Part shown: piece by piece, positions 2,887 to 45,046 of the stretch | How the letters are laid out: the number at the start of each line of letters is the position of its first letter | Numbering within the stretch: the stretch's first letter is position 1 | Virus record (IMG/VR): IMGVR_UViG_3300025949_000019 | Location: 1 to 64,000 of that record | Source: a virus | Length of the DNA: 64,000 nt | Direction: 5' to 3' (one strand) | Program-made: the position numbers and the translations under genes | Notes under the pieces: generated by a model | Databases searched by the model: none | What the model was told of the DNA's origin: nothing | What the model saw: only the letters and a program-made list of their open reading frames with translations

Positions 2887-2887
2887 A

Positions 2888-3046: not shown

Positions 3047-3057
3047 GTGTTTTCATT

Positions 3058-3460: not shown

Positions 3461-3534
3461 TGCGCGGTGGTGTAACAGCAACACGCTAGGCTCATAACCT
3501 TGAACTCTGGGTGCGACTCCCGGCTGCGCTTCCA
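3461..3534 (+). tRNA. tRNA-Met(CAT), probably initiator-like
   Basis: Unpaired T1:T72, loop CT-CAT-AA, T loop TGCGACT, CCA; only two of the three initiator G:C pairs in the anticodon stem. Confidence 0.8.
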
Positions 3535-3570
3535 TCATTTCAATATACATAAAAGGGAGAATAAAACAAT

Positions 3571-3822
3571 ATGGTTCTATTAACTTCTTGGGTTGCAATT
3601 GGAATGGTGCTGATCGCACTAGATGGCGGTCAATTAGATCAAAAAGCATTTGCATCAAACAAAGTCTTTATGTCTGAAGCTGATTGTCAAAAGGAAGTTG
3701 ATGGAGCAATTCCATTGTTTGACAGAGATGTAGAGGCTGGAAAGCTTGGCGGTTATGTCCTAAAATGTGTTCAAGTAGAATTGCGTCCTCCGCTGCCTAC
3801 CAAGAAAGAAAAAAAGAAGTAA
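3571..3822 (+). CDS. hypothetical exported protein
   Basis: Hydrophobic N-terminus, F.SEADC...C pair; SD GGGAG. Confidence 0.65.
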   Translation: MVLLTSWVAIGMVLIALDGGQLDQKAFASNKVFMSEADCQKEVDGAIPLFDRDVEAGKLGGYVLKCVQVELRPPLPTKKEKKK

Positions 3823-3835
3823 TACGCGCACCGAT

Positions 3836-3911
3836 GCGGCGGTAGTTCAGTTGGTAGAATAGGAGCTTGCCAAGTTTCAGGTCACGGGTTCGATCCCCGT
3901 TCGCCGCTCCA
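3836..3911 (+). tRNA. tRNA-Gly(GCC)
   Basis: GCGGCGG/TCGCCGC + U73-CCA, loop TT-GCC-AA, canonical D and T arms. Confidence 0.95.
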
Positions 3912-20201: not shown

Positions 20202-20243
20202 TATAAACACATTTGCCAGTATTTTAGCAGCATAAATAGTATA

Positions 20244-20585
20244 ATGGTGTAGCTGTAAAGAATGGTTGTAAACTTGCATGAAAGAACGCTCGGAACACGC
20301 GGGTTCGACTCCCGCCATCTCCACCAAAGAATTTTCGCATTAGCGGCAGCCAATAGAAGAAGGCCGGGGAATATAAGCTGAGAATTCTTTAGTGGGGATG
20401 TAACGGATATCGACTCTGAGTAAGTATGTCATATAAGCAACCCGTGAATCGCTCACGTTAAACAGAGAAAAAACAAAATTTAATCGCAAATGATGAAAAT
20501 TTTGATCTAGCTCTTGCTGCGTAATTAGCAGTAAGGTAAGCCGGGGTTTTGGGAGATGAACCTAGCAACAGAATCATCTCCCATT
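20244..20585 (+). ncRNA. ssrA: circularly permuted (two-piece) tmRNA
   Basis: Acceptor piece ends GCGGGTTCGACTCCCGCCATCTCCACCA (20326); self-paired spacer 20327-20393; coding piece starts GGGGATG (20394, G3:U70 with CATCTCC); tag ORF 20486-20524 = ANDENFDLALAA*; terminal hairpin 20550-20583. Outer ends approximate. Confidence 0.92.
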
Positions 20586-31469: not shown

Positions 31470-32519
31470 ATGCCAACCTCAACCTTCAAGCTAACAAACA
31501 GAACCCCGCTTCCAACAAACGCTGATATCTCAGTCGCTAGCCAAACAGAAGATGGTCTTGAAATTCTTCAATATCCATCAGACTTGCTACGAGACAAAGT
31601 GCCGGTTGTTGGTAATACAATAGATGCGGTCGTGCCATTCATTTCCTTCTATATCATGGTTCCACAGAAAGCCCAAGCAATAAAAGACAATCTAGCACTA
31701 GACGACGACACTTCAAAAAACGTCATTGCACTAAGAGGCTTGCAATATGCTTCTGAGGTCAACAAGGAATTGACTATCAAGGCTGGGGAAGCTTTTTCGA
31801 CTGGCTTGAACGATGGAAAGGACAGACTCAGAATCCAAAGAAAAGTTCAAGTCCTGAAGAAATTGATCTGCCTTCACATGCCGGATACAGTAAACCATGA
31901 CTTGAGTGCAGAATACAGCACACTTTCCATTGGAAAAGATTTGGTTAAGGTTGGTTCTGTTATTGATGCAGTCAAGCATGGAATCAAGATGGACATGGAC
32001 AAGCTAGGCTCTGATATTGTCAATTTTGGCGCTGCATTTGCAGACGAAAGCGGTCTTGCTGGTGTTGCAGGAACATTAGCCAAATATGTCCAAGCCGGTC
32101 AGGGCGTTGCAGTAAACCCGCTTTCTGAGGTGTTCTTTGAGAACATGCAATTCAGGCAATTCAATTTCGATTTTAAGATGCAACCTAGAAATGCAGCAGA
32201 AGCACAAGAAATCCTAGACATAATAAAGACATTCAGAATGTACATGGTTCCAGAGATTTCGTCTGACAACGTTGCTGGCATTTTCTTCACTGTTCCGGGA
32301 TTCTTCCAGATCAAGTATTATATCCAAGACCAGGATGGTGTTCGCGAAAACGACAGGATTCCTAGAATTTCTGGTTGTGCATTGACTGGTGTTCAAACTG
32401 ACTGGGCTCCGGATGGATTGTCACTTCACAAGGATGGAATGCCAAATGCAGTTAGAATTCAATTGAACTTCACTGAGCTAGAAATCATGCACAGAGACAG
32501 AATCAAGGACGGATACTAA
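31470..32519 (+). CDS. gp48: baseplate tail tube cap
   Basis: L.YP.D, I.LHMP, NP..E..F....FRQFNFDF...PRN..EA, L.FTE.E. Confidence 0.85.
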   Translation: MPTSTFKLTNRTPLPTNADISVASQTEDGLEILQYPSDLLRDKVPVVGNTIDAVVPFISFYIMVPQKAQAIKDNLALDDDTSKNVIALRGLQYASEVNKELTIKAGEAFSTGLNDGKDRLRIQRKVQVLKKLICLHMPDTVNHDLSAEYSTLSIGKDLVKVGSVIDAVKHGIKMDMDKLGSDIVNFGAAFADESGLAGVAGTLAKYVQAGQGVAVNPLSEVFFENMQFRQFNFDFKMQPRNAAEAQEILDIIKTFRMYMVPEISSDNVAGIFFTVPGFFQIKYYIQDQDGVRENDRIPRISGCALTGVQTDWAPDGLSLHKDGMPNAVRIQLNFTELEIMHRDRIKDGY

Positions 32520-32527
32520 AAACTATC

Positions 32528-33151
32528 ATGGGTAAATATTTTGACAAAATGCCAAAAGTCTATTACAGCCTGGACGATAATAGACAAAATCCACAGGTTG
32601 TTACTGACGTTACGTTTTCAGTCAGATTGCTAGAACAATATGCAACCGACACCAAATTCTTCTATACGACAATAGTCAAGGATGGTTTGAAACCAGAGGA
32701 TGTTGCTTTTATTGTCTATGGAGATGTTCAGTTGCATTGGGTCATTCTACAATTCAATAAGATCATAAATCCAAGATTCGAATGGCCGTTATCTAGTATC
32801 AATCTAGACAAATACATAATAGACAAATATGGTTCTATTGGCAATGCAGAATCGGGTGTTCATACTTATCTAAAAAAATTAACATATGTTTCGTCTACTT
32901 CGGATACACCATATGTCAGAAACATTGAGATTGGCGCAGCGGAATATGCTAATGTAGCTATTGATCTAGCTGGACAAGACTATTCTTTGTCTAACGGCGA
33001 AACAGTCACAATCCTAACTGACAGAGATACAATATCATTCTATGATTGGGAAGTCTCAGAGAATGAAAAGAAACGAGAAATAAGATTGTTGCAGAATCAG
33101 TATGTCGATGCGATTAGAGTTTCATTCAATAATCTAACAAAGGTGTCATAA
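32528..33151 (+). CDS. gp53: baseplate wedge subunit
   Basis: YF..MP...Y, DG..PE.VA...YGD..LHWVIL.FN.I.NP..EWP, ENE.KR.I. Confidence 0.9.
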   Translation: MGKYFDKMPKVYYSLDDNRQNPQVVTDVTFSVRLLEQYATDTKFFYTTIVKDGLKPEDVAFIVYGDVQLHWVILQFNKIINPRFEWPLSSINLDKYIIDKYGSIGNAESGVHTYLKKLTYVSSTSDTPYVRNIEIGAAEYANVAIDLAGQDYSLSNGETVTILTDRDTISFYDWEVSENEKKREIRLLQNQYVDAIRVSFNNLTKVS

Positions 33152-33155
33152 GATA

Positions 33156-34532
33156 ATGGCAGTAACACAAAAAGTCCTCCAGAGTGCGACTGGTGTTTCT
33201 ATTGATAGATTCGTCGTGATTGCTGGCACAAGAAACAGCATTGGCTTGGAACTACAGATGTTGGAGATGAACATCTTTGAGGATATCTTTTCGCCATCAA
33301 TGTCGGCTACTGTCCTTGTTCAAGATACATTCAACCTAATCGAAAAAATCCCAATTTGTGGTCAAGAGTGGGTCTTCATTAGAATTTCAAAACCTGGATT
33401 TGAAGCAGAAGATGGCAATGATCTTAGCTTTTCCTTCCTGATGCGAATCTATAAGATTGAAAAGGTAAATCACGAATCTCCTCTTAAACAAACCTATTTG
33501 ATGCATTTGATTAAGGAAGACGCCGTTTTCTCCGCTCAAGACAGGGTCAATAAGTCATACAAGACAACAAAGCCTGAAGTTGCAATCAAGGACATATTCA
33601 AGAACAATTTCTTTTATGATGATGAAGATTCGTTCTTGCAATCGTTCGCAACATGGCCTATGAAATCATCAAATTATGCGTTTTCATTTCAAATACCAAA
33701 CTTGAAGCCATTTGAAGCAATTCAGTTTCTATCTTCAATGGCTAGGAATAAGAACAACATAAATGACTATATCTTCTTTGAAAACAATAGAGGTTATGTA
33801 TTCGATAGTCTCTCAGAGATGTTTGTTGCAGACCCAATTCTAACCATCGAATATAGGGTAAAGAACATCGTGACAGATACGGTTGATTCTACTGACCCAT
33901 ATGTTAACTCTCTGTCACCATTGGGTATTCAAAATGATGTTCTGTTTGATTACTTAAAGAGTCTAGACCATGGAGAATTGGGTGTGCAAGCAGACTCTTT
34001 CCAGTTGCATAATCAAACATTCATGTCAAATTCTATTTCATATGATACTTTCTTTAGCAAGTACAAGAAAGATTTTAAGCTAAACAAATTCAGCAAGATA
34101 CCAGACAATGATTGGCGTGAATTGATCACAAGTCAAGATGCAAGCCGTATTCCATACTATAGGGTATTTTCTGTTATTCCGAAGAAGAATGCAGGTCTAT
34201 TTACTGATTTCTCTGAGGAAGCAATCGCAACTAGGGTTATGCAATTCTCGTCAATAACAAATCAGAAGATCAGGCTTCATATGCCAGGAACTCCACTAAT
34301 GAAGGCTGGTGCAACGATTCAACTTCAATATCCTGCAATCGAATCTAAATCTACTTCAGACAATGCAGAGGAATTGTTAGATGATTACCTAGCAGCAAAA
34401 TACTTGATCCTATCTGTGCGTCATGTAATAACACAGAAGGAATGGCATTCCTATGCAGAAATTTCCAAGGACACACTTCCTAAGAAACTACCTATGGAAT
34501 TCGCCTCAAACTTTACACTAGAAGGTCTATAA
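33156..34532 (+). CDS. baseplate hub protein (gp27-like)
   Basis: IFEDIFSP, PI.GQE, PN.KPFEAI, FFEN..GY.F; lies between gp53 and gp5. Confidence 0.7.
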   Translation: MAVTQKVLQSATGVSIDRFVVIAGTRNSIGLELQMLEMNIFEDIFSPSMSATVLVQDTFNLIEKIPICGQEWVFIRISKPGFEAEDGNDLSFSFLMRIYKIEKVNHESPLKQTYLMHLIKEDAVFSAQDRVNKSYKTTKPEVAIKDIFKNNFFYDDEDSFLQSFATWPMKSSNYAFSFQIPNLKPFEAIQFLSSMARNKNNINDYIFFENNRGYVFDSLSEMFVADPILTIEYRVKNIVTDTVDSTDPYVNSLSPLGIQNDVLFDYLKSLDHGELGVQADSFQLHNQTFMSNSISYDTFFSKYKKDFKLNKFSKIPDNDWRELITSQDASRIPYYRVFSVIPKKNAGLFTDFSEEAIATRVMQFSSITNQKIRLHMPGTPLMKAGATIQLQYPAIESKSTSDNAEELLDDYLAAKYLILSVRHVITQKEWHSYAEISKDTLPKKLPMEFASNFTLEGL

Positions 34533-34533
34533 G

Positions 34534-36276
34534 ATGGAAAATTTCTTCTTTGGAAAAGCTGGATTGATTCCTTGGATTGGGATCGTAGAAAGACGAAATA
34601 GCGATGATCTAAGGATTGGTCGCTGTAAGGTCAGGGCTTTCTTTCACCACAGCGGTGACACATCAGAAATGTCAACGGATTCGCTTCCCGATGCATATCC
34701 ACTAGAACCATTGACAGGAACATTCTGGGCAACAGCGAAGGAAGGTGATACTGTTTTTGGTTATTTCTTGGACGAAAAGAAACAATCAATGCTAATTGTT
34801 GGAAAATTGCCTGTTGCTCTCCAAAATGAAGTCAATCATCCAGAAGGTTCTGGTTTCAAGGATGCAAGAACAAGTGCAGAGCTAGCCTCGTTTCCAAGAC
34901 AGATTTTCAAGACATACAGATATTCACCTAATGGTGTCGATGCACAGGAACTAGACAAGGCTGCAAAATATCCTCCATATGGCTCAGACAAAGCCTCAAT
35001 ACCATTTTTGTCAAGAGCAGACGAGGCTGCAATTCCATCCCAGATTTCTCCAGATTCTAGAAAAGCCCAAGCCTCCGGAACTAGATACAACACAGCCGAT
35101 GGTAAGACATGGTTTGAATTGCCAACTGTCTGGTCTGCGAAGTATCCTTTCAATCATGCATACGAATCAGAATCACTTCATGTCATGGAGTTCGATGATT
35201 CGCCTGGCTCCGAGAGAGTTTCCCTGCACCACAGAATAGGCTCTGGTTTTGAGTTTTTCCCTGATGGTTCTGTTGTCTATAAAAATATGAAGGACGGTTA
35301 TGAGGTGACATTGGGGAACAAGAAAATCGGTATCTCTGGTGATTGTGATGTTCACATCAAAGGTAACAGGACATTGCTGATAGATGGTAACCTGACACAA
35401 CACGTTTCTGGTGACTATTTTCTATCGGTTGACGGTCAGATGAAGACACTTATTAGAGGAAATGAGACAAGAAACATAGGTGCAGACAGCAAGACTTCTA
35501 TTCAGGGAGATTTTGTCAACAAGGTGGCTGGTCAGCTATGGTTGCAGGGAAGCAAGATACAGGAAAATTCTTCATCTACACCAGACGTAGATGAAATCCA
35601 TGACTTTGATCTACCGTCGTTACCAGCAAACACAATTGAAAACACATCGAAATTGATTTCTATTACAGGCACAGAAGTTGCAGCACACGATGATACATTC
35701 AAGGTTGCAGGAGGCGGTTCAGGTGAAGTTGTGACCACAAACAAGCTAACACCAGCGCCAACGACATGTCCTGTCGTGAAGGATTCAACGACTGCATTTA
35801 CTGATGGCGATTCACGTTACAGAATGCAGCTTTCGAAATATTACCAATTGGCTGATTTGACAATTCGCCCACCATATCCTCATGCAATTGCAGATCAAAA
35901 TGGCTTGAGTCAGGCTGATATAATTTGCAACCTAGCAGCACTTTCATTGCAGATCATAGATCCAATCTCCGCTCAATTTCCCGGTTCTCAGATCAATTCA
36001 GGATTCAGGGCTTTAACTGATGGTAAGTCACAACACGAATCGGGTGAGGCTGTTGATTTGCAATGGCCATCAATAACTGCTGGTTCATTGTCTAAATACC
36101 TAGAGATTGCAAACTGGATAAAAGACAATCTACCATTTGATCAATTGATTCTAGAGCATGGAACAACATGCTGGATTCACGTCTCAATGTCTAGAACAAA
36201 GACAAATAGAAAAGTAACCTTGACTCAGATAAATGGAACATACTATCCAGGTCTTTCAATGTTTGGGAGGATATAA
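34534..36276 (+). CDS. gp5: baseplate central spike gp5 with C-terminal peptidase M15A-like domain
   Basis: OB fold W.G.VE...GRCKVR, YPFNH..ESES.H..EFDD.PG.ER, beta-helix repeats; C-terminal SGFR...SQH..GEAVD...WIHVS. Confidence 0.88.
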   Translation: MENFFFGKAGLIPWIGIVERRNSDDLRIGRCKVRAFFHHSGDTSEMSTDSLPDAYPLEPLTGTFWATAKEGDTVFGYFLDEKKQSMLIVGKLPVALQNEVNHPEGSGFKDARTSAELASFPRQIFKTYRYSPNGVDAQELDKAAKYPPYGSDKASIPFLSRADEAAIPSQISPDSRKAQASGTRYNTADGKTWFELPTVWSAKYPFNHAYESESLHVMEFDDSPGSERVSLHHRIGSGFEFFPDGSVVYKNMKDGYEVTLGNKKIGISGDCDVHIKGNRTLLIDGNLTQHVSGDYFLSVDGQMKTLIRGNETRNIGADSKTSIQGDFVNKVAGQLWLQGSKIQENSSSTPDVDEIHDFDLPSLPANTIENTSKLISITGTEVAAHDDTFKVAGGGSGEVVTTNKLTPAPTTCPVVKDSTTAFTDGDSRYRMQLSKYYQLADLTIRPPYPHAIADQNGLSQADIICNLAALSLQIIDPISAQFPGSQINSGFRALTDGKSQHESGEAVDLQWPSITAGSLSKYLEIANWIKDNLPFDQLILEHGTTCWIHVSMSRTKTNRKVTLTQINGTYYPGLSMFGRI

Positions 36277-36281
36277 GATAT

Positions 36282-36920
36282 ATGCCAGGAGCAGCACGAA
36301 CGTACAAAAATTACATGATCAAATTTCCCAATGAAAAAGTTTATGTGGGCTATACTTCAACCAGTATGGAAGATAGGCGTAAAGCTCACAAGAGGGATAT
36401 GAAGTTAAATAGACCCGTATCAAATGCTCTCAAGAAGTATGGATTTGAAAATGTAAATTGGCAAATCATTGCGGAGTTTGATAATGAGCATGATGCTCTA
36501 GAAAATGAAAAGAAGTTAATTGAAGAATACAATTCTAGAGACATAAATTTTGGATATAATGTGTCTGTTGGAGGTGAAACTTTTCCAACCGGTTTTAATG
36601 GATCATATTGGATGGAAGGAAAAACTGAAGCTGAAATTAAATCGATTAATAAGAAGAAGGGAAAACCAGGCGAAACAAATCCATTTTACGGTAAGAAACA
36701 TTCAAAAGAGTCTATGGATAAGATGGTAGCTAAAAGACGAGCTAGTGGTTCTTATGATATCCCATCTTGCTCCATCCCTATAATTTATGACGGAATAGAA
36801 TATAAAACTAAGAGTCATATGAGGCGTGCTACCGGTATAAGTAGAAATAAACAAAACAAATTAATATCAGAAGGAATTGCTACATTGAAAGCTCAGATCA
36901 ATGGTAAGGAGGTTAACTAA
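36282..36920 (+). mobile_element. free-standing GIY-YIG homing endonuclease (Seg/I-TevI-like) fused to the first six PAAR codons
   Basis: KNY...YVG, R...H, E, GYN catalytic motifs; NUMOD3 NPFYGKKHS.ES; begins MPGAAR. Confidence 0.88.
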
Positions 36921-37214
36921 TGCCCGGGGCATCTCGTTTTGGCGATCTTTGCTCTGGGCATTAGTTGCCATGGTTGTTATCCGTCACGTCCAAACATCTC
37001 CGCATCAGATGATGTGTTTGTAAATGATATTGGTTCTCACAGGGTTTCTGACCAGTGGGACGTTCATTGTTGCAAGCTTTGTCACGGCGGGTCCACGATA
37101 GAGGGTTCGCCAGATGTGTTTGTGAATGACCTGCCAAAGGCACGCATTGGTGATGCAGTTGATTGTGGTTCAATGATTCTAGAAGGTTCCGATGACGTAT
37201 TGGTGAATGAATGA
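36920..37214 (+). CDS. gp5.4: PAAR spike-tip protein gp5.4 interrupted by a 10-nt insertion (36962-36971); candidate ribosomal bypass
   Basis: SD TAAGGAGGT then MPGASRFGDLCSGH-TAG; resumes GCYPSRP...VFVN...ARIGD.VDCG in the +1 frame; removing 10 nt gives a 94-aa PAAR protein. Confidence 0.85.
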
Positions 37215-38893
37215 TTCCTAATTTCCTAACAGATACATTTTCTTCAGTAGCCGGTGAGTTTGCAAACTCCTCGGGTCCATTTATTGAAGGGCTTGACTTT
37301 GATGCAAGCCAGTTTCCATCAGATTTGGTTAATCTACCATCTGAATTGAATATTCAGAAGTTAAATCCATTCCAGTCTGACATGGTTAAGACCATCCTAA
37401 CAGAGAATGGCCGTGCTGAATTGTTCACAAATCCTCACACGCAAGATATTCTTGCAGTCAGGACACGATTAAACAATCTTCTAAATTCGCCTGGTGCGAA
37501 TGCAACTGGTGTCGATCTATCAATTTCACTAGGACCGTCCGTGACTGATCTTCTAGAGACAATAGATCACTTCGAATCTCACACCGATAGACTGTCTGGA
37601 GTCATTGAGCCAGACACAAAAACAGCAGCATTACCAACACTAGAGCGAGCCTTGGCTGTTGGCAGCAGCATCAATCACATTCACAAGGTTCTAGATATAG
37701 ACCTAAAGCCAACAAATTCACCAGTCCTGTCATTGTTTGGATCGCTGTTTGCAGGGAAAACTCATTTTGATAATCTGAAGACAATCCTCGCAAAGCCCGA
37801 CTCCGATATCCTACCAGAAGATTTGAATGGCATTTCCCAATCGTTGACTACCTTGGCTGAAAACGATGTTAAAAACTACACCGTTGCTGTCAAGAAACTA
37901 AAGAGAATTGGTGTTGCAAACATGGTCTTCGGCATGAAGGACAAGCCAGTAGAGGCTAATATCATTTCATTGGTCACGACTTCGTTTTCGAAAGGTTTGT
38001 TCCAGAATGATACGACAAAAAGGGATGCGGATCAGGTTGCAACAACACAGAAACGTCTTGAGATTCAGGCTGCATCCAGAGCAAATACTGTCTCGTACAA
38101 CCAGGAATTCAAGGAAATTCCAGACTTATTCAGGGCTCATGGCTTATTTGAGGGAATTCCTATTACGTGGGATATCTATAAGAAAATCACAGACCAATAC
38201 CCATCAGACCAGCCAGGCTTGTTCAATTCATATCTGTCAACAGAAAGACTAACATCACCAGATCAACTCAGCATTTATTTCAATGCCCCATTTAAGTTTA
38301 AAAAAGGCAAGTTCTTATTGGCTATCTTCCAAGACTATGTAAGCCGCCAGGCTAAAAGTAACATCATTGGTCATGCGGACTGGTACTTTGGTGGCGTTCT
38401 GAAGTTTGGTTCGATATCTAAGATTCTACTAGACGAAGGTTGGTTTAATGGCTCAATAACAAATTCCCTAGGCGGTACAGTCGATGACAAGATAGAACCA
38501 CAGACATATGATAATGGCAATTGGAGGAGGGCGACCACAGATGAGGAAGCAAAACTGAAGGATTTCGTCGTGAACTACCCAAATGGTAATGTAAATGGCG
38601 TGAATGATGATTTGCTTCGCAGGATGAGATTCTATGTCTACGGGGCTCCATTTGACCTATATAACTGGATTGGTTCTAGATACTTGATTCCAGCAGACCC
38701 AACACTAACACCGCCAGGTCAGATTTACCAAGGTGGTATTTGGATTCCACCGCAGCCACCGAAGCCATGGCCACCGGGTGTTATCAATTACGTCCTATTC
38801 ACTGGCGGACCAAACGGAGCCCATTGGGACCCACAGTATGCTGCCTCTTGGACTGGTCACAGAGACCCATCAGACGCAATCCAACCATCATAA
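37211..38893 (+). CDS. hypothetical virion-associated protein
   Basis: 560-aa ORF coupled to gp5.4 (ATGA), Pro/Trp-rich C-terminus. Confidence 0.7.
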   Translation: MIPNFLTDTFSSVAGEFANSSGPFIEGLDFDASQFPSDLVNLPSELNIQKLNPFQSDMVKTILTENGRAELFTNPHTQDILAVRTRLNNLLNSPGANATGVDLSISLGPSVTDLLETIDHFESHTDRLSGVIEPDTKTAALPTLERALAVGSSINHIHKVLDIDLKPTNSPVLSLFGSLFAGKTHFDNLKTILAKPDSDILPEDLNGISQSLTTLAENDVKNYTVAVKKLKRIGVANMVFGMKDKPVEANIISLVTTSFSKGLFQNDTTKRDADQVATTQKRLEIQAASRANTVSYNQEFKEIPDLFRAHGLFEGIPITWDIYKKITDQYPSDQPGLFNSYLSTERLTSPDQLSIYFNAPFKFKKGKFLLAIFQDYVSRQAKSNIIGHADWYFGGVLKFGSISKILLDEGWFNGSITNSLGGTVDDKIEPQTYDNGNWRRATTDEEAKLKDFVVNYPNGNVNGVNDDLLRRMRFYVYGAPFDLYNWIGSRYLIPADPTLTPPGQIYQGGIWIPPQPPKPWPPGVINYVLFTGGPNGAHWDPQYAASWTGHRDPSDAIQPS

Positions 38894-38910
38894 ATACAAG
38901 ATAAACCATC

Positions 38911-39300
38911 ATGGCACAACCAACTTATAAAGATATCGATCTAAACTTCCTAGTTCATCCGGTCAAGAAAGATATCAACACGTTAACTGATGCAGATGCC
39001 ATCGTCGCTTCTGTAAGAAATCTGGTCCTAACCAACAGGTTTGAGACGCCATTCAATCCAGACGAAGGCTCCGACCTCAGAAGAATGCTTTTTGAGAACT
39101 GGTCGCCAGCCTTGGATGCTGTCATTGCACAGTTGATTGGCCAGGTTGTTCAGATTTATGAGCCGAGGGTGACACTTACTGAAATTGATGTAACCTTTGA
39201 TGAAGATGCAGGTGGCTACTTCATTGACATTAGATTCCTAATCAACACAATACCAAACAAAGTATTTCAAGGCTCGTTCTTTCTAGATAAAGCAAGGTAA
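38911..39300 (+). CDS. gp25: baseplate wedge subunit
   Basis: YKDIDL.F..HPV..D, SVRNL.LT...E.PF.P..G, YEPRV; CATAAATA at 38889. Confidence 0.93.
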   Translation: MAQPTYKDIDLNFLVHPVKKDINTLTDADAIVASVRNLVLTNRFETPFNPDEGSDLRRMLFENWSPALDAVIAQLIGQVVQIYEPRVTLTEIDVTFDEDAGGYFIDIRFLINTIPNKVFQGSFFLDKAR

Positions 39301-39302
39301 AA

Positions 39303-41360
39303 ATGACAACAAACGTCCTAAGAATAACAGAAATAGACTTCGATACCATCCTTGGTAATCTGAGAACATGGTTCCAATCCCAAGATCAGTTCAAGGACTA
39401 TGACTTTGAAGGCTCTGGTCTTTCAATTTTATTGAAGAACCTAGCGTACAATACACACTATAATGCCTTCTATCTAAACATGGCAGTCAATGAGGCGTTT
39501 ATTGGTGGCGCTATTGTTGCAAGGAACGTTTATTCTCATGCAAAGACATTGAATTATCTACCAGGTTCTAGGATAGCAGCAAAAGCTACTGTAGATGTTA
39601 CAATCACACCACCACCAAACTATTCATCTTCTGCTTTCACGATTCCAAAATACCAACAATTCGTTTCTTCTGCAATCGATGGAGTCTCATATTCATTTGT
39701 GACAACAGAATCCCTATTTGGTTCTAGGGTTACCTCGTTTGGCCAAGAGCCATTCCTATTTTCTGGTGTAATTTTGTCTCAGGGCGAACCAATCACAATA
39801 ACATATACTGTTGACCAAACAACAAATCCGAAGCTTCGTTTTGAGATTCCATCTGCAAATGTAGACATAAACACACTATCGGTTCAGACGCAAGAATCAG
39901 CATCAAATACATTGATAACAACATGGTCTGTTTCTAGTGACATTACCGCAATCGATTCTTCTACAAATGCATTCTTCCTAGAACGTGGATCAAACGGAAA
40001 CTATACTCTGTATTTCGGTGATGGTATCGTTGGTAAGAAGCCAAATACTGGCAATTTGTTGTTGGTCTCATATTTGGTAACAAATGGCCTAGAAGCAAAT
40101 AAGGCTCAATTCTTCACGATGCTGCCATTAGATAACGTAGCCTCTGTCTCTGTCTCTACTGTAGCGGCTGCGGCTGGTGGTGATGATGAGGAATCAATCG
40201 ATTCTATCAAAGCATCTGCGCCTATTTTCTATTCTACGCAAGGTCGAGCAGTCACGAAGGGAGACTTTGAAGTTACCATTAAGAAAGATTTCCCGGCTGT
40301 AGGTTCTGTTTCTGTCTGGGGTGGTGAGGAAAACAACCCACCTATTTACGGCAAAGTCTTTGTTGCACTTGCACCAAAGGAAGGATTCTTGATTTCTCAA
40401 GCCCAGAAGGACAGTATCGTTAAGAAATTAGTAGAGGAAAGAGTAACCGTCTCTATCAACCCAGAAATCAAGGACCCAGACTATACTTACGTCAGGTTGA
40501 AATCAACTGTGCAGTATGACAAACAAAAGACAAATCTAACAAAAGGCGTCCTTACGGATGCAATTAGAAATGCAATCATAGATTACAACGAAACCAATCT
40601 AAGAACATTCGATTCTAATTTTATCACATCTAAACTGGCAACCGCAATTGACGATTCGAACCCAGCTATTCTTGGTAATGACACTAGGGTTTTCCTAGAG
40701 AAAAGGTTTCTTCCTGTCATTGGTAGAAGTGGTACATACACCCTAAACTTCAATACAGAACTAAAGCGTGGAACTGTCATTGATAAACTAGGTTCAACAG
40801 TCTTCCAAATGTTAGACCCAAACGGTATTGAACAGAGCGTTTATTTCGAAGAAAAGCCATTGTCCTTTACTGGTATCGATGATATTGTTGTTACAAATCC
40901 GGGATCGCAATATCTTTCACCACCAGATGTTGTAATCACAGGTGATGGACAGGGTGCAACCGCGAGCGCAAGCATTGTGAATGGTATGGTCAAATCCATC
41001 AAGGTCACAAACAAGGGCGACTCTTACACGACCGCACTCGTCACATTGAATTCTGACACAGGGCTCGGAGCAACTGCGAAACCAGTCATTGCAGCACGCT
41101 ATGGGCAGCTAAGAATCTTCTATTACAATGATCTACAGCAAAAGGTGATTCTAGTTGAAAATGCAGGAACAATCGATTATCTTCTAGGCCAGATTGTGAT
41201 CACTTCATTCAATCCATCTAATTTCAGTCGTTATATTGCACTGTGGTTACAGACAGAGGAACCCATCATTCAATCAGTTAGAGGAAGCATTTTGATCATA
41301 GACACCTCTGATATTTCATCAATCAACATTAACTTGCAAGAATCGTCAGCATCTTCATGA
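39303..41360 (+). CDS. gp6: baseplate wedge subunit
   Basis: DFD.I..NL, DYDFEGS.LS, LAYNTHYNA, FGDG..GK, Q.RAVT..D, WGGEEN.PP.YGKV. Confidence 0.95.
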   Translation: MTTNVLRITEIDFDTILGNLRTWFQSQDQFKDYDFEGSGLSILLKNLAYNTHYNAFYLNMAVNEAFIGGAIVARNVYSHAKTLNYLPGSRIAAKATVDVTITPPPNYSSSAFTIPKYQQFVSSAIDGVSYSFVTTESLFGSRVTSFGQEPFLFSGVILSQGEPITITYTVDQTTNPKLRFEIPSANVDINTLSVQTQESASNTLITTWSVSSDITAIDSSTNAFFLERGSNGNYTLYFGDGIVGKKPNTGNLLLVSYLVTNGLEANKAQFFTMLPLDNVASVSVSTVAAAAGGDDEESIDSIKASAPIFYSTQGRAVTKGDFEVTIKKDFPAVGSVSVWGGEENNPPIYGKVFVALAPKEGFLISQAQKDSIVKKLVEERVTVSINPEIKDPDYTYVRLKSTVQYDKQKTNLTKGVLTDAIRNAIIDYNETNLRTFDSNFITSKLATAIDDSNPAILGNDTRVFLEKRFLPVIGRSGTYTLNFNTELKRGTVIDKLGSTVFQMLDPNGIEQSVYFEEKPLSFTGIDDIVVTNPGSQYLSPPDVVITGDGQGATASASIVNGMVKSIKVTNKGDSYTTALVTLNSDTGLGATAKPVIAARYGQLRIFYYNDLQQKVILVENAGTIDYLLGQIVITSFNPSNFSRYIALWLQTEEPIIQSVRGSILIIDTSDISSININLQESSASS

Positions 41361-43696
41361 TTTCATCGAATAATAAAGTCTCGCTGGTAGCACCGTCTCA
41401 GTTGCCAGCATTCGTTCAGGACGATTACCAGACATTCATCGCTTTTCTAGAAGCTTATTATGAGTTTTTAGAGCAAGATGGTGGTGTGAACTGGGGTCTA
41501 GACAAACTGAATTCAGCTTTTGATGTTGATGCAGCAATTGACCAATTCCTAGATCGCTTCAAGGATCAGTATCTAAATGGCTGGCCAGACGATATGCTAG
41601 CCGACAAAGCACTTGTCATAAAGAATATTAAGCAGTTTTATCTTTCTAAGGGAACTGAGAAGTCCATCAAATTTTTATTCAGGGCTCTTTTTGGTGAAGA
41701 TATTACAATTTTCTACCCAAACAGATCAATCCTGAAGGTCTCTGATGGAAAGTGGGTTAAGGAACAAGCACTCAGGATTACTGGTAACATCTTGAATATC
41801 TATACTGGTGATGGTAATACAGCATCATACATCATATCAGACACGGTAAATTCAAAGGCTAATTTGCATGTCTTCATCAATGAAACTGAGATTACACAGA
41901 ACAACTTCACATTGTCAGGTAGAACGGTAACATTGAGCCAAAATGTAGCAAACAATGACACACTAACAATCGACATTGAGGGTGCAGATTATAACAGGTT
42001 CGTCGGTCAACAAATCTTCGGCTCTCTATCGGAAGCAACAGCAATCGTAGAAAAATACAAGCAAGTCTTTGACAAGGGACAATTCTATAATGAACTAACT
42101 GTTACTGACTTAGCAAAAGCTTTTGTTATTGGTGAGAATGCGTATACATTCTTTATAGACGATGAAAATAACATCTCAATCAAAATAGCAGTTCCAATTA
42201 CATCGTCTGTTATTGACGTTGAAATTGTTTCCGGTGGAACCTTCTATAATGTTGGTGACCCTCTTGTCTTCACATCTAATGTTGGTTCTGGTGCGGAAGC
42301 CTTCGTGGCTAGCATCTTCCGATCAGGTATCCGATCATTAGAAGTCCTTGCGAAAGGTGCTGGATTTGAACCTGGTGTTTTCTTTAACATAACAGGCGGT
42401 GGTGGAACTGGTGCTGTTATTCAATTAAATGGTGTCGATTCTAGTGGCTTCACACATCCAAACACATACAATGTCACGACTGATATCATTCACACATATG
42501 CAAACACACCGATTAATTCAAACACATATGGATTCCCAGCCTTTGCAAACGCAAACCTAAACACTTTGCTTTCTCAGTCATTCCAATACCAACAATATGG
42601 TCTTTGTGGTCCAGTTGATCCTACGCAAGTCCTGATTATAACTGAGGGACAAGATTATAGTGCACCACCTACGATTAAGCTACCAGTGCCAATCTTTGAA
42701 GTAAACGTAGCAGGAAATACAGCTAACGTTGCAATGACAGACTTTGGCATTCTAGGATCATTAAAGATCATAAATGGTGGTTCTGGATATGCAGTAGGTG
42801 ACGAAGTTATCTTCACAAACCAACCAGGATCATCTGGACAGGATGCAGCGGCGGCTGTCACTTCAGTCTCCGCGACGGGTGGTATTGCAAAGATTGATTT
42901 TCAACCACCAAGAATAAGCGGAACAGCAAATATATCTGCTGGTTCTAACGTAGTCTTGGGAATTGGTACTGCATTTTCAAATGCAATAACAGCTAATGCT
43001 AAGATCATGATCAACAATGAAAGTCAGATAGTCAAGACCGTTGTCAACGCAAATTCAATTATTATCTTCGGCACTTGGGCTAACTCTGCAAACAATAAGA
43101 AAATTGGCGTCTATGGGAGGAATTTCATTGGCGGCTCTGGTTATCACATGGGTGAATTGCCAACTATTTCTCTTTCATCTGTTGGCGGCGTAGATGCAAA
43201 TGTGGTCTGTGATGCAGTCATTGGTGACGGTGATGATGTTCGTGTTTCATCCCTACAACCTGTTGGTAAGATAAGGACAATCAAAGTAAGTCAAGGTGGT
43301 AGAGGCTATCTTGAACCACCTCTGGTTGACCTAACAATGAGCGGTGACGGAACGGCTAATGTCATTGCAGAAATTGCCGGAGGAATGTTCCAATATCCGG
43401 GAAGATACAAAAATGAAGACGGTTTGCTGTCTGGCACAAATAAGATTCATGATCGTGATTTTTACCAATTGTATTCCTATGTCATTCAATCCAAGAATAC
43501 ACTAGACAAGTATGAAAAAATTCTGAAACAACTAGCTCACCCTCTTGGTATGAAGCAATTTGCAGAGGTTGAAGTCGGCTTCGCGGAAGTGTCGCCAACC
43601 GATTCCACCAACGTATTCTCATACGGTGCTGTAACCGAAAACAAGTTCTTGAAATTGTCAATTAGCGGCAAGGCTAACACTCATAAGACTCCATAA
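41357..43696 (+). CDS. gp7: baseplate wedge initiator (gp7-like)
   Basis: QLP.FV.DDY..F..FL.AYYEFLE, FY.SKGT..S, SDGKW, D..FYQ.YSYVI, HP.G. Confidence 0.8.
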   Translation: MISSNNKVSLVAPSQLPAFVQDDYQTFIAFLEAYYEFLEQDGGVNWGLDKLNSAFDVDAAIDQFLDRFKDQYLNGWPDDMLADKALVIKNIKQFYLSKGTEKSIKFLFRALFGEDITIFYPNRSILKVSDGKWVKEQALRITGNILNIYTGDGNTASYIISDTVNSKANLHVFINETEITQNNFTLSGRTVTLSQNVANNDTLTIDIEGADYNRFVGQQIFGSLSEATAIVEKYKQVFDKGQFYNELTVTDLAKAFVIGENAYTFFIDDENNISIKIAVPITSSVIDVEIVSGGTFYNVGDPLVFTSNVGSGAEAFVASIFRSGIRSLEVLAKGAGFEPGVFFNITGGGGTGAVIQLNGVDSSGFTHPNTYNVTTDIIHTYANTPINSNTYGFPAFANANLNTLLSQSFQYQQYGLCGPVDPTQVLIITEGQDYSAPPTIKLPVPIFEVNVAGNTANVAMTDFGILGSLKIINGGSGYAVGDEVIFTNQPGSSGQDAAAAVTSVSATGGIAKIDFQPPRISGTANISAGSNVVLGIGTAFSNAITANAKIMINNESQIVKTVVNANSIIIFGTWANSANNKKIGVYGRNFIGGSGYHMGELPTISLSSVGGVDANVVCDAVIGDGDDVRVSSLQPVGKIRTIKVSQGGRGYLEPPLVDLTMSGDGTANVIAEIAGGMFQYPGRYKNEDGLLSGTNKIHDRDFYQLYSYVIQSKNTLDKYEKILKQLAHPLGMKQFAEVEVGFAEVSPTDSTNVFSYGAVTENKFLKLSISGKANTHKTP

Positions 43697-43706
43697 ATAA
43701 ACTGAT

Positions 43707-45038
43707 ATGTCAAACTCAATCTTAACACCAAATTATCGCTTCACGATTGCATCCGAGTTCTTGGATTCGTTTGCCAGGGAAGACGTTTCTTACTATCTTT
43801 TCATCGGAAAAATCCTTCCTTGGGCAAATGAAGCCTCACCAAACGTTGGTGATACATCAATTGTAACTCAGAAGGACGCATGGAATTCCATGATTTCAGC
43901 AAAGCGCCTTCGCGGTGATTCTGTCAGGCTTGTCATTCCAAGAACAGCTTGGACGGCCAATGTCATCTATACACCATATGATGATAATAACCCAACATAC
44001 TACACAAATACTTCAAACAAAATCTATGTTGTTACTGCTAATAATGAGGTCTATAAGTGTATTGACAATGCAAACACAGCAAATTCTACAATAGAGCCTA
44101 TTGGTAACAACAATAACAGCGGCTTTGTTAAGATGCAAGACGGTTACCTCTGGAAATATATGTTCACCGTTGCTTCTGAAGTAAATGATTCTGCATTTGT
44201 GACTTCAGATTATATTCCTGTACCATTGACTCAAGTCGGAACAACAGCCGTCGTTCCGGGGACAATCGACAGAATTATTGTCACCGATCCGGGGTTTGGT
44301 TATAATGGCGCAAATGCCGGTATTGATCTAGCAATCGTGACAATTACCGGAGATGGTTCTGGTGCTACCGCAGTTGCAAACGTGGGCTTAACTGGCAATA
44401 TTTCATCTGTTACTGTCACTTCCCAAGGAACGGGCTACACATATGCAAATGTGACATTTGCTGGTGGTGTTGGAGCAACAGCAAGAGCAATCATCTCGCC
44501 GGTTAATGGACACGGTTTCGCACCAGCAGAGGAATTGAACGCAAAGCAAGTCTTGTTGGCTGGGCGTATTGGAAGACCAGATTCGACCGAAGGTGGTACA
44601 TTTACTATTCAAAATGACTTCAGACAGTTCGGTATAATAAAAAATCCATATAAATATAACACTACCGAGATTGCAAACTCAAATTCTGTCAGCCAGACAG
44701 TAGATATCACAATCGTAGAAGATAATTCTCCTGATTTTGCTATCGATGATTTTGTGTTTCAGATTGATGCAAATGGAAGCATCGTTTTCTCTGGGAATGT
44801 TGTTGATATTGGCAATCAATCAAACACAGCAATTGTTAAGGTTACCCAAGCAACTGGTGTGGTTCAAGTAGGAAACCTGATGTTTAACACAAATTCAGTA
44901 AAATCTAAGAGGGTTCAATCATTCAGCAATCCTCCACTAGAACGATATTCTGGACAAGTCTTGTATTTTGAAAATATACTAGCAGTCCAAAGAAACAACA
45001 ATCAAGCGGAAGTGTTCAAAGTTCTATTTGATTTTTAG
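43707..45038 (+). CDS. gp8: baseplate wedge subunit
   Basis: Y.FIG...PW, VYKCIDN, DGY.WKYMF, GHG....EL, NDFRQ.GII.NP. Confidence 0.88.
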   Translation: MSNSILTPNYRFTIASEFLDSFAREDVSYYLFIGKILPWANEASPNVGDTSIVTQKDAWNSMISAKRLRGDSVRLVIPRTAWTANVIYTPYDDNNPTYYTNTSNKIYVVTANNEVYKCIDNANTANSTIEPIGNNNNSGFVKMQDGYLWKYMFTVASEVNDSAFVTSDYIPVPLTQVGTTAVVPGTIDRIIVTDPGFGYNGANAGIDLAIVTITGDGSGATAVANVGLTGNISSVTVTSQGTGYTYANVTFAGGVGATARAIISPVNGHGFAPAEELNAKQVLLAGRIGRPDSTEGGTFTIQNDFRQFGIIKNPYKYNTTEIANSNSVSQTVDITIVEDNSPDFAIDDFVFQIDANGSIVFSGNVVDIGNQSNTAIVKVTQATGVVQVGNLMFNTNSVKSKRVQSFSNPPLERYSGQVLYFENILAVQRNNNQAEVFKVLFDF

Positions 45039-45046
45039 GGAAATAA

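What the first reader, a model, noticed from the sequence alone, without database searches (positions are those of the whole stretch)
36282..37214. Homing endonuclease plus 10-nt ribosomal bypass cassette in the PAAR spike gene (a miniature T4 mobA/gene 60)
Seen: the gp5.4 PAAR gene has a perfect SD (TAAGGAGGT, 36905-36913) and ATG at 36920. It reads MPGASRFGDLCSGH and hits TAG. The local sequence is GGG CAT TAG TTGC CAT GGT TGT: a His codon, an immediate stop, and the same His codon 10 nt later. A small hairpin GGCA-TTAGT-TGCC puts the stop in its loop. Hopping CAT(36959) to CAT(36969) gives exactly the PAAR consensus RxGDxCxGHGCxP and an otherwise intact 94-aa protein with no extra or missing residue. 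Directly upstream is a GIY-YIG endonuclease whose first six codons (MPGAAR) are the original PAAR start, and the replacement start (MPGASR) differs at wobble positions. Established: T4 gene 60 uses matched take-off/landing codons, a stop right after take-off and a hairpin to skip 50 nt, and that insert travels with the neighbouring homing endonuclease mobA and protects its cleavage site. Inference: this is an independent, much smaller endonuclease-plus-bypass cassette in a virion structural gene, where the 10 nt immunise the target site and ribosome hopping rescues the protein.
Basis: partly seen in the sequence, partly recalled or inferred. Interest (0 to 1): 0.93.

Follow-up and report, generated by a model that had tools for sequence, protein, structure and literature searches.

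The report
Endonuclease cassette with ribosome-hop insert
An uncultured soil phage's only tail-spike tip (PAAR) gene is broken by a selfish nuclease gene plus a 10-base stop-containing insert. The sequence layout, a strong RNA hairpin and a second phage lineage suggest that ribosomes hop over the insert; no experiment has shown this.

Summary
The start ATG at 36920 gives 14 codons, then CAT (36959) TAG TTGC CAT (36969). The PAAR domain continues in the +1 frame. Omitting exactly 10 nt gives a 94-aa protein that aligns without gaps to seven of eight close relatives, 80/94 identical to the best. The insert is present in independent assemblies of two rhizosphere samples.

A GIY-YIG/NUMOD3 homing endonuclease sits upstream. 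It begins with a diverged copy (13/18 nt) of the first six PAAR codons.

New evidence:
- A second PAAR lineage (L004-6) has no adjacent endonuclease. One codon further on it carries GGT TAA CTA GGT, again with matched codons around a stop.
- Both insert-bearing alleles have a 15-20 bp hairpin that pairs the start-codon region with codons 11-14 (z -5 to -6). This is absent from 45 other alleles.
- In the window, 8 of the 10 inserted bases pair with the spacer supplied by the endonuclease's 3' end.
- An intein and translated inserts occur at the same motif in other PAAR genes.

Best reading (about 0.55): a short translational hop in a homing-endonuclease cassette. The main rival is a tolerated knockout, since T4 gp5.4 is dispensable in the laboratory.

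This scan noted similar endonuclease-plus-short-hop cassettes before on other DNA; those notes are unverified.

The parts
34534..36276 (+). gp5-like central spike gene (580 aa) directly upstream; it forms the left homology flank of the cassette
   Evidence: Pfam Gp5_C, Gp5_trimer_C and Gp5_OB matches; ORF list
36282..36920 (+). GIY-YIG homing endonuclease ORF (212 aa). Its stop TAA overlaps the PAAR ATG (TAATG).
   Evidence: Pfam GIY-YIG E 3.3e-7 and NUMOD3 E 1.8e-5. phrog_314 homing endonuclease E 3e-28, matching residues 8-189. It is the only GIY-YIG in the 97.5-kb record.
36282..36299 (+). First six codons of the endonuclease ORF (MPGAAR). They are a diverged copy of the PAAR start and sit where the PAAR start would lie, just after the gp5 stop.
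   Evidence: 13/18 nt identical to 36920-36937. Relatives P0003 and P0004 begin MPGAAR. The family matches to the endonuclease begin only at residues 8-11.
36905..36913 (+). Shine-Dalgarno sequence for the re-supplied PAAR start, encoded inside the last endonuclease codons
   Evidence: Sequence
36920..36964 (+). PAAR part 1: ATG, 14 codons ending in the take-off His codon CAT (36959-36961), then stop TAG (36962-36964)
   Evidence: Eleven of these 14 residues are identical to P0002.
36962..36971 (+). The 10 nt absent from relatives (TAG TTGC CAT). Because CAT is repeated, it can equally be placed as any 10-nt frame within 36959-36971. The landing codon CAT is 36969-36971.
   Evidence: The gap-free alignment of the joined product with seven close relatives of 94 aa. 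Present without indel in runs X1 and X2.
36911..36969 (+). Large coding hairpin. The 5' arm is 36911-36931 (end of SD, spacer, ATG, codons 2-4). The 3' arm is 36950-36969 (codons 11-14, TAG and most of the insert). It has 20 bp with one bulge (U36914) and an inner 4-bp stem at 36934-36945.
   Evidence: The 81-nt fold gives -37.4 kcal/mol, z -6.2, 0 of 200 shuffles as stable. The register comparison with 45 other PAAR alleles is.
36970..36984 (+). Small 3' hairpin (4 bp, 7-nt loop) that starts inside the landing codon
   Evidence: Part of the minimum-energy fold. Not tested on its own.
36972..37214 (+). PAAR part 2: resumes at GGT and runs 80 codons to TGA. Its stop overlaps the ATG (37211) of the next baseplate-region gene.
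   Evidence: Pfam PAAR_motif E 2.4e-10 and phrog_281 E 4.9e-22. It is the only PAAR in the record. Four strain differences in run X2 are all synonymous in this frame.

Best explanation
This is a homing-endonuclease cassette inserted at the 5' end of the phage's single PAAR spike-tip gene. The gene is kept functional by a short translational bypass, a 'stop-hop'.

Shown by sequence:
- The GIY-YIG endonuclease ORF uses a copy of the PAAR start and first six codons.
- Its last codons carry a new SD.
- Its stop overlaps a re-supplied PAAR ATG plus six recoded codons.
- 24 nt further on, between His14 and Gly15, lie 10 extra bases.

Inferred mechanism:
1. A ribosome translates 14 codons and stops with peptidyl-tRNA-His on CAU and UAG in the A site.
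2. In a fraction of ribosomes the anticodon unpairs.
3. The mRNA slides 10 nt.
4. The tRNA re-pairs with the second CAU.
5. Decoding resumes at GGU, giving the 94-aa protein.

The strong hairpin pairs the start region with codons 11-14 and the insert. It probably occludes the AUG until the upstream endonuclease ORF is translated. It probably also refolds behind the ribosome and favours forward movement, as proposed for the 5' stem-loop of T4 gene 60.

A low yield would suffice, because T4 carries one spike-tip monomer per virion.

Also inferred: the insert, which moves with the endonuclease by co-conversion, spoils the endonuclease's own target.
For: 1. Exact restoration. The joined product is 94 aa and aligns with zero gaps to seven of eight close relatives, P0002 to P0009 (80/94 identical to P0002). 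A +1 shift or the TTG-started ORF needs 3 gap positions.

2. Matched codons and a stop in two independent lineages. The window has CAT TAG TTGC CAT. L004/5/6 (54% identical PAAR, two metagenomes) has GGT TAA CTA GGT one codon later, in frame, and again restores the consensus exactly. By my own estimate, under a random-insert null, 'last 3 nt equal the preceding codon' and 'first 3 nt are a stop' come to about 7e-4 per lineage.

3. A hairpin specific to the insert alleles. Twelve contiguous pairs form between codons 1-4 and 11-14, with -23.2 and -24.4 kcal/mol for the 42-nt segment. The 45 other distinct PAAR 5' segments show at most 6 pairs and no better than -14.2 kcal/mol. Having 2 of 2 against 0 of 45 gives about 1e-3. 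Full structures score z -6.2 and -5.3.

4. The insert belongs to the cassette. Eight of its 10 nt pair with the SD-AUG spacer encoded by the endonuclease 3' end. The recoded start pairs better than the copy at the endonuclease 5' end: 12 against 7 contiguous pairs, -23.2 against -17.2 kcal/mol.

5. The insert is real and persists. It is identical in two samples and studies and shows no indel. The ORF is seen on 4 contigs.

6. Both gene halves are intact. The SD is perfect. His14, which in T4 gp5.4 is a metal ligand needed for binding gp5, lies in part 1 (PMC12407873). It is the only PAAR in the record.

7. This motif is a repeated target of selfish elements. P0086 carries an intein inserted at Cys11. 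P0062 and P0091 carry translated inserts directly after His14.

8. Precedent. T4 gene 60/MobA. Synthetic stop-hops with matched codons (PMC5009743). The 10-nt inserts of Hau3 terminase, with a junction peptide seen by mass spectrometry in E. coli once the UUA codon was changed to the stop UAA (PMC10732093).
Against: - There is no protein or RNA evidence.
- The nascent chain is only 14 residues at take-off, so a gene 60-like nascent-peptide signal cannot act. No SD-like element lies in the gap.
- The efficiency of unstimulated 9-10-nt hops is unknown; by my recollection it is low.
- T4 gp5.4 is dispensable for plaque formation in the laboratory, so an inactivated gene could persist for a while, especially if driven by the endonuclease.
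- The four synonymous strain differences start about 100 nt after the insert, while about 1 kb to the left is identical. They may therefore predate arrival of the cassette and say little about selection since then.
- The hairpin could be the cause of the insert (template switching at a quasi-palindrome) rather than a recoding signal.
- The loop after His14 tolerates insertions in some lineages, so a +1-shift product with 3 extra residues might also work.
- Only two insert lineages were found among about 155 distinct PAAR loci.
Confidence: 0.55

Rival explanations
1. Tolerated knockout. The endonuclease cassette, or a replication error at the inverted repeat, put a frame-breaking, stop-containing insert into a gene the phage can do without for a time. 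No full-length PAAR is made. The matched codons are by-products of how the insert arose.
For: T4 5.4 amber mutants assemble and plate normally in the laboratory, and no lethal spike-tip mutation is known in any phage (PMC12407873). A clearly decayed PAAR exists elsewhere: L207 in a Bartonella apis genome has two lesions in the same region. In the window, the first 5 inserted nt are what copying from the opposite hairpin arm would give. The synonymous differences may predate the insert.
Against: The T4 mutant loses by a factor of about 1.55 per growth cycle in competition, so a dead gene should be purged or decay. Here there is a single lesion, a perfect SD and both halves intact. The same allele occurs in two samples and at depth 23. 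Two unrelated lineages each show stop, matched codon and exact restoration. Both also carry an exceptional hairpin made through codon choice, which a dead gene has no reason to keep. Template switching does not explain the L004-6 insert.
Confidence: 0.25
2. Recoding happens, but not by hopping. In the window it is a +1 frameshift at CAU-UAG, with the incoming tRNA reading AGU, giving a PAAR with three extra residues (SCH). In L004-6 it is readthrough of UAA.
For: A stop in the A site stimulates +1 shifts. The +1 product keeps all conserved residues. The loop after His14 carries natural insertions of about 4 to 31 residues in some lineages, so three more may be tolerated.
Against: tRNA-His cannot re-pair at AUU. 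The two lineages would need two different mechanisms. By my recollection, UAA is the least leaky stop codon. This reading leaves the matched landing codons unexplained in both lineages. In L004-6 the +1 frame has a TAG inside the insert.
Confidence: 0.1
3. The downstream part is made on its own, by re-initiation after the stop or from the TTG at 36939. It works alone or together with the 14-residue peptide, as a 'gene in pieces' like the nrdA or topoisomerase genes that MobE and MobA split.
For: Gene callers call the 91-aa TTG ORF. Endonuclease-split genes that still function are known.
Against: In the PAAR frame the TTG at 36939 has only a weak GGGG upstream, and this start lies inside the hairpin. 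In L004-6 the first in-frame start after the stop is an ATG seven codons further on, with no SD. The product would lack the first PAAR motif. In L004-6 it would also lack His14, which T4 gp5.4 needs for binding gp5.
Confidence: 0.05
4. The insert is removed before translation, by RNA-level excision or by a DNA subpopulation without it, or it is an assembly error.
For: None directly. Contigs cannot show rare variants.
Against: Independent assemblies of two samples agree with no indel, as do four contigs in the protein collection. Ten nt is too short for a self-splicing intron. No Rfam family matches here.
Confidence: 0.03

Closest known systems
Phage T4 gene 60 translational bypass carried by the MobA homing-endonuclease element (Huang 1988; Bonocora 2011; Manning & Atkins preprint 10.1101/2022.08.31.505936)
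   Same: Both have an endonuclease gene inserted in a conserved phage gene. Both re-supply coding ends. Both have a short untranslated insert a few tens of bases from the endonuclease junction. Both show matched take-off and landing codons, a stop right after take-off and an upstream stem-loop. Both have lineages that keep the insert without the endonuclease.
   Different: Here the gap is 10 nt, not 50. The endonuclease is GIY-YIG, not HNH. The gene is PAAR, not topoisomerase. There is no sequence similarity. No nascent-peptide signal is possible, with 14 residues against 46. There is no SD in the gap. The 5' helix is far stronger and includes the start codon. Nothing has been shown experimentally.
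Streptomyces phage Hau3 terminase: 10-nt (and, in prophages, 7-nt) inserts proposed to be bypassed (Smith 2013; Antonov et al. 2023, PMC10732093)
   Same: Both are frame-breaking inserts of the same size in a phage late gene. Their flanks are contiguous in insert-free relatives. Both have a slow-to-decode codon at the 5' end of the insert, nearby RNA structure, and +1 frameshifting as the competing reading.
   Different: Hau3 uses the rare sense codon UUA and is thought to be regulatory, sensing the host's growth state. No endonuclease is linked to it. Here the A-site codon is a true stop and the insert sits in an endonuclease cassette.
Synthetic 'stop-hops' in E. coli (Weiss et al. 1987; reviewed in PMC5009743)
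   Same: [quoted passage not shown] The in-frame L004-6 form (12 nt coding one Gly) is nearly this design.
   Different: Those were engineered constructs. The 2016 review states that no natural in-frame stop-hop is known.
Free-standing GIY-YIG homing endonucleases of phages (I-TevI, Seg proteins)
   Same: The domain order is GIY-YIG then NUMOD3. The gene is inserted beside or inside a conserved gene and uses the host gene's expression signals. By my recollection, I-TevI cuts about 23-25 bp from its insertion site, close to the 24 nt between junction and insert here.
   Different: This one is fused in frame to the first six codons of its target gene. Its cleavage site is unknown.

Membership tests
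T4 gene 60-type programmed bypass (MobA cassette) | Matched take-off and landing codons | tested here: met
   CAT at 36959 and at 36969; GGT/GGT in L006
T4 gene 60-type programmed bypass (MobA cassette) | Stop or other slow codon directly 3' of take-off | tested here: met
   TAG at 36962-36964; TAA in L006
T4 gene 60-type programmed bypass (MobA cassette) | Compact take-off stem-loop formed by the take-off codon and the start of the gap | tested here: inconclusive
   The 4-bp GGCA/UGCC hairpin exists but scores z -0.8. It competes with the large helix.
T4 gene 60-type programmed bypass (MobA cassette) | Nascent-peptide signal in the exit tunnel | tested here: not met
   Only 14 residues are made before take-off. 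Their sequence is the ordinary PAAR N-terminus found in uninterrupted relatives.
T4 gene 60-type programmed bypass (MobA cassette) | SD-like element in the gap 5' of the landing codon | tested here: not met
   The gap is TAGTTGC, with no GAG or GGAGG
T4 gene 60-type programmed bypass (MobA cassette) | Homology to the gene 60 cassette and location in the topoisomerase II large-subunit gene | tested here: not met
   The host gene is PAAR and the endonuclease is GIY-YIG. Not a member, only an analogue.
T4 gene 60-type programmed bypass (MobA cassette) | The insert protects the target from the linked endonuclease | not testable with these tools
   Needs an in vitro cleavage assay
Short-distance bypass / stop-hop (synthetic constructs; Hau3 terminase candidates) | A short insert whose flanks are contiguous in insert-free homologues, with a re-pairing codon at its 3' end | tested here: met
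   Zero-gap alignment of the joined 94-aa product with seven 94-aa relatives; 33 uninterrupted alleles at the DNA level
Short-distance bypass / stop-hop (synthetic constructs; Hau3 terminase candidates) | A junction peptide showing that the gap is skipped | not testable with these tools
   Needs mass spectrometry
GIY-YIG homing endonuclease | GIY-YIG catalytic domain plus a DNA-binding module | tested here: met
   PF01541 E 3.3e-7, NUMOD3 E 1.8e-5; phrog_314 E 3e-28. By eye against my memory of I-TevI, the Arg, His, Glu and Asn catalytic positions are present.
GIY-YIG homing endonuclease | Sporadic presence at a conserved site | tested here: met
   No relative of it lies beside PAAR in the other roughly 155 distinct loci. 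Close PAAR relatives are plain 94-aa genes, but their flanks could not be fetched.
GIY-YIG homing endonuclease | Cleaves the endonuclease-free allele and drives its own inheritance | not testable with these tools
   There is an indirect hint only. X2 contigs are identical to X1 over about 1 kb spanning the cassette, yet differ at 5 of 332 nt just downstream.
PAAR-repeat spike-tip protein (PF05488; T4 gp5.4, V. cholerae VCA0105) | PAAR domain, N-terminal PAAR motif, His/Cys metal site, gene next to the spike gene | tested here: met
   PF05488. The close relative P0002 matches 4JIV chain D at E 1.7e-8. The gp5-like gene lies directly upstream. The full set of features exists only in the joined product.

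The most novel reading that the evidence does not exclude
Natural minimal bypass modules exist. They consist of a strong coding hairpin that ends at the take-off codon, a stop, a 6-7-nt gap and a matched landing codon. They arise repeatedly at homing-endonuclease target sites in phage genes, here in two PAAR lineages. They let a selfish cassette alter its DNA target without changing the protein. Refolding of the hairpin behind the ribosome supplies the forward drive, without any nascent-peptide signal.
Probability: 0.4. Interest if true: 0.9.

Novelty: new variant of a known kind. Interest (0 to 1): 0.8.

Why it matters
Efficient translational bypassing in phages rests on one studied case, T4 gene 60, whose cassette a 2022 survey still called unique. 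A 2016 review states that no natural stop-hop is known.

If this reading is right, it offers three things:
- a 10-nt, hairpin-assisted hop in a virion gene, tied to a different class of homing endonuclease, showing that the 'selfish nuclease plus bypass' solution evolved more than once;
- a far smaller and more tractable model, about 80 nt, for asking what makes a ribosome let go and land again;
- a warning for annotation, since such genes are currently called as fragments or pseudogenes.

If it is wrong, the locus is still a clean example of an endonuclease capturing its target gene's start.

Tried and rejected
- **DNA of the closest relatives.** The DNA of P0002-P0008, of the short ORF calls P0006 and P0027, and of P0062 and P0091 could not be fetched. 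Co-occurrence of insert, hairpin and endonuclease in close kin therefore stays untested.
- **Close phage relatives.**
  - blastn against GenBank phages found nothing.
  - The 560-aa neighbour has no relative in IMG/VR.
  - gp5 relatives (L029-31) have no PAAR after them.
- **Broad alignment query.** It was too diverse for a pattern scan.
- **Genome-wide scan for 'codon-stop-same codon'.** It gave 650 hits, so it is uninformative without homology.
- **Survey of neighbouring ORFs for other endonuclease families.** I prepared it but dropped it as too noisy.
- **RNA.** No RNA holder was listed for this stretch, so expression is unknown.
- **L042/L043.** The in-frame TGA sits at the Cys codon, and between the two contigs the whole gene shows 15 synonymous and 3 nonsynonymous changes, 14 and 2 of them downstream of the TGA. 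I first counted this as a third interruption. I then set it aside as a different phenomenon, UGA recoding, as in earlier scan notes on PAAR genes.
- **P0022.** It is only an alternative start call of an intact gene.
- **L207.** It looks like a true pseudogene.
- **Amber reassignment or suppressor tRNA.** Rejected: the frames differ, and none of the seven tRNAs found is a suppressor.
Full report
**What is there**

The window is part of a 97.5-kb IMG/VR virus record. It was assembled from a metagenome and CheckV estimates it at about 54% complete. Positions 31470-51265 hold a tightly packed, same-strand block of baseplate and tail genes.

- A 580-aa gp5-like spike gene (34534-36276) carries Gp5_C, Gp5 trimerisation and OB-domain matches.
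- Five bases after its stop, a 212-aa ORF begins (36282-36920). It has a GIY-YIG domain and a NUMOD3 motif and matches phrog_314 'homing endonuclease' at E 3e-28.
- The family matches begin only at residues 8-11.
- The first six codons (MPGAAR) are a PAAR N-terminus. Relatives P0003 and P0004 start with exactly these residues.
- The 18 nt are 13/18 identical to the start of the PAAR gene proper at 36920.

The last endonuclease codons contain TAAGGAGGT. Its stop overlaps the next ATG (TAATG). From 36920 the sequence reads MPGASRFGDLCSGH, then TAG. The PAAR domain (Pfam E 2.4e-10, phrog_281 E 4.9e-22) continues from 36969 in the +1 frame to 37214, where its stop overlaps the start of the next gene.

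**The 10 nt are an insertion, and they are real**

Searching the large protein collection with the downstream 81 residues found close relatives, most of them 94 aa. P0002 is 86% identical over those residues, and all relatives carry ...GH followed directly by GC[FY]P.

| Product tested | Length | Gaps against the 94-aa relatives |
|---|---|---|
| Joined, omitting 36962-36971 | 94 aa | none (80/94 identical to P0002) |
| +1 frameshift | 97 aa | 3 positions |
| Started at TTG 36939 | 91 aa | 3 positions |

Thirty-three distinct uninterrupted alleles fetched as DNA have CAY followed directly by the next codon.

The insert is not an assembly artefact.
- Logan's independent contig of run X1 spans it at depth 23. 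X1 is probably the source sample.
- In run X2, a different sample and study, two contigs cover 36826-36981 and 36959-37290 with no indel.
- The +1-frame ORF that contains the translated insert is on record from three JGI contigs and one ENA contig.

**A second, independent lineage**

About 155 distinct PAAR loci were fetched from IMG/VR, JGI metagenomes and GTDB genomes. One other lineage has the same kind of lesion. It is L004/L005/L006, also fetched as L126-128: three contigs from two metagenomes, 54% identical to the window's PAAR. It reads ...TGC ACT GGG CAT GGT TAA CTA GGT TGT TTC CCA.

- The insert is 9 nt and in frame, one codon later than in the window.
- The codon before it (GGT) is repeated at its end.
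- A stop follows the first copy directly.
- Skipping from GGT to GGT restores ...GHGCFP... exactly.
- Nothing in the 3 kb on either side of PAAR looks like an endonuclease. The upstream neighbour, a 950-aa ORF, matched no PHROG, the record has no GIY-YIG, and its only HNH lies about 11 kb away.
- It is that record's only PAAR.
- TAA is a genuine stop there, since the neighbouring genes end in it.

A frameshift cannot explain this allele, and TAA readthrough would add three residues. One mechanism that fits both lineages is re-pairing of peptidyl-tRNA at the matched codon.

**A hairpin specific to the insert-bearing alleles**

The promoter and terminator scan flagged a palindrome at the new start. 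Following this up, I compared the 42 nt from ATG to the His14 codon in all distinct alleles.

| Alleles | Contiguous pairs, codons 1-4 with 11-14 | Fold energy (kcal/mol) |
|---|---|---|
| Window | 12 | -23.2 |
| L004 lineage | 12 | -24.4 |
| 45 other segments | at most 6 | no better than -14.2 |

Two of two against none of 45 is about 1 in 1,000 by Fisher's test (my calculation).

Folded in context, the window forms a 20-bp helix with one bulge, 36911-36931 with 36950-36969. It scores -37.4 kcal/mol and z -6.2, and no shuffle among 200 did as well. L006 forms a 15-bp helix, 2947-2961 with 2981-2995, at -32.9 kcal/mol and z -5.3.

- In L006 the helix ends exactly at the take-off codon.
- In the window the helix also takes in the TAG and most of the insert. 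UAGUU pairs with AACUA, and GCC pairs with GGU of the SD-AUG spacer.
- The insert is therefore complementary to sequence supplied by the endonuclease's 3' end.
- The recoded replacement start pairs better than the copy at the endonuclease 5' end would: 12 against 7 contiguous pairs, -23.2 against -17.2 kcal/mol.
- Between the two lineages the helix differs at three pairs but stays paired.
- A small hairpin begins at or inside the landing codon in both.

**How it most likely works**

Shown: the anatomy above.

Inferred: PAAR translation starts at 36920, probably coupled to termination of the endonuclease ORF because the AUG is buried in the helix. At codon 14 the A site holds UAG. Most ribosomes terminate. 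A fraction detach from CAU, slide 10 nt and re-pair at the second CAU.

When the ribosome sits at take-off, the 5' arm has already left it. As the 3' arm emerges it can pair with the 5' arm. That would hinder backward movement and favour forward movement. This role is proposed for mRNA pairing behind the ribosome in gene 60 (preprint 10.1101/2024.12.09.627546; discussion).

A low yield may be enough, because T4 carries a single gp5.4 monomer per virion (PMC12407873). The same paper shows that His14 is a metal ligand without which gp5.4 does not bind gp5. A product lacking part 1 should therefore be inactive.

**The homing-cassette part**

- The endonuclease is intact and uses the PAAR translation signals.
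- The junction (36937/36938) is 24 nt from the insert. By my recollection, I-TevI cuts about 23-25 bp from its insertion site, so the spacing is similar, and the insert splits a CATGG that fits its CNNNG cleavage motif. This is a lead, not a test.
- X2 contigs are identical to X1 from 35900 to 36981 but differ at 5 of 332 positions just downstream. Recent spread of the cassette, with its insert, into a slightly diverged genome would leave this pattern. Coverage is low, however, and only contigs were available.
- Four of those differences lie in PAAR and all are synonymous third-position changes. Because they may predate the cassette, I give them little weight.
- The motif attracts selfish elements elsewhere. 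P0086 is a PAAR with an intein inserted at Cys11 (Intein_splicing E 1.2e-13). P0062 and P0091 carry translated inserts of about 31 and 21 residues directly after His14.

**Rivals**

The main rival is a tolerated knockout. T4 5.4 amber mutants plate normally, although they lose by about 1.55-fold per cycle in competition. A decayed PAAR with two lesions exists in a Bartonella genome. The first five inserted bases in the window are what template switching across the inverted repeat would produce.

Against it:
- there is a single lesion;
- the SD is perfect and both halves are intact;
- the allele is abundant and recurs;
- the signature is the same in two lineages;
- the hairpins are built from codon choice.

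A +1 shift (window) plus readthrough (L006) remains possible, because the loop after His14 tolerates insertions in some lineages. It needs two mechanisms, however, and leaves the matched codons unexplained. Independent initiation of part 2, RNA-level removal and artefact are unlikely, for the reasons given under the rival explanations.

**Comparison with what is known**

- It works like the T4 gene 60/MobA cassette but is not a member. The gene, the endonuclease class and the gap length all differ. A nascent-peptide signal is not possible and there is no SD in the gap.
- In size it matches the 10-nt inserts of Streptomyces phage Hau3 terminase. For those, bypassing has partial experimental support, including a junction peptide seen in E. 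coli after the UUA codon was changed to UAA. They begin with a rare sense codon and have no linked endonuclease.
- The in-frame L006 form is close to the synthetic stop-hops of Weiss et al. The 2016 review says no natural one is known.

Earlier notes of this scan describe similar endonuclease-plus-short-hop cassettes in other phage genes, one of them also behind a coding hairpin. These are unverified AI notes and I used them only as leads.

**Unexplained**

The 9-mer GGTTAACTA is L006's insert. It occurs once in the whole 97.5-kb record, at 36911-36919, which is exactly the SD-ATG spacer. The window's own insert is nearly its reverse complement. Whether the two inserts share an origin is open.

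**Verdict**

The reading as an endonuclease cassette rescued by a short hop is the best supported (about 0.55) but has no experimental proof. It is a new variant of a known kind and of high interest.

Noticed in passing
window 20208-20582 (+): The phage encodes a permuted, alphaproteobacterial-type tmRNA. Rfam matches are tmRNA_permuted at 95.6 bits and alpha_tmRNA at 74.1 bits. ARAGORN gives the tag ANDENFDLALAA. This points to an alphaproteobacterial host. It is also curious in a phage whose PAAR mRNA may stall ribosomes.
   Followed up: partly
window 133-3911 (+): A cluster of seven tRNA genes (Val-GAC, Met x2, Ile-AAT, Ala-TGC, Gly-TCC, Gly-GCC). None is a tRNA-His or a suppressor.
   Followed up: no
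L042 2273-2563 and L043 520-810: These PAAR genes have a conserved in-frame TGA exactly at the metal-ligand Cys codon (CSGHSP*FPP). Between the two diverged contigs there are 15 synonymous and 3 nonsynonymous differences, so translation goes on past the TGA. Neighbouring genes use TGA as a stop. This fits the candidate selenocysteine PAAR genes noted earlier in this scan.
   Followed up: partly
protein P0086 (505 aa, from the representative library): A PAAR protein with an intein inserted at Cys11 of the GDxC motif, three codons before the window's take-off site. The intein has NUMOD3-like repeats and an HTH.
   Followed up: partly
proteins P0062 (127 aa) and P0091 (111 aa): These PAAR proteins have translated inserts of about 31 and 21 residues directly after His14, replacing the GC pair. 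Their DNA could not be fetched. They could be longer inserts at the same site, translated or bypassed.
   Followed up: no
L006 2992-3000 and window 36911-36919: The 9-nt insert of the L006 lineage (GGTTAACTA) is identical to the SD-ATG spacer of the window's PAAR start. That is the only occurrence in the 97.5-kb record. The window's insert is nearly its reverse complement.
   Followed up: partly
L207 2440-2560 (Bartonella apis genome contig): A prophage PAAR gene has two lesions in the same 5' region: an in-frame TGA between two GGT codons, and a 2-nt TA expansion in TATAT. It is probably a pseudogene.
   Followed up: partly
window 36306-36338: A separate 958-nt contig in run X1 matches 33 nt of the endonuclease N-terminal coding region with 3 mismatches and then diverges on both sides. 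It may be a related endonuclease in another phage of the sample.
   Followed up: no
window 45047-51265 (+): A 2072-aa ORF lies at the end of the baseplate and tail block. I did not examine it.
   Followed up: no
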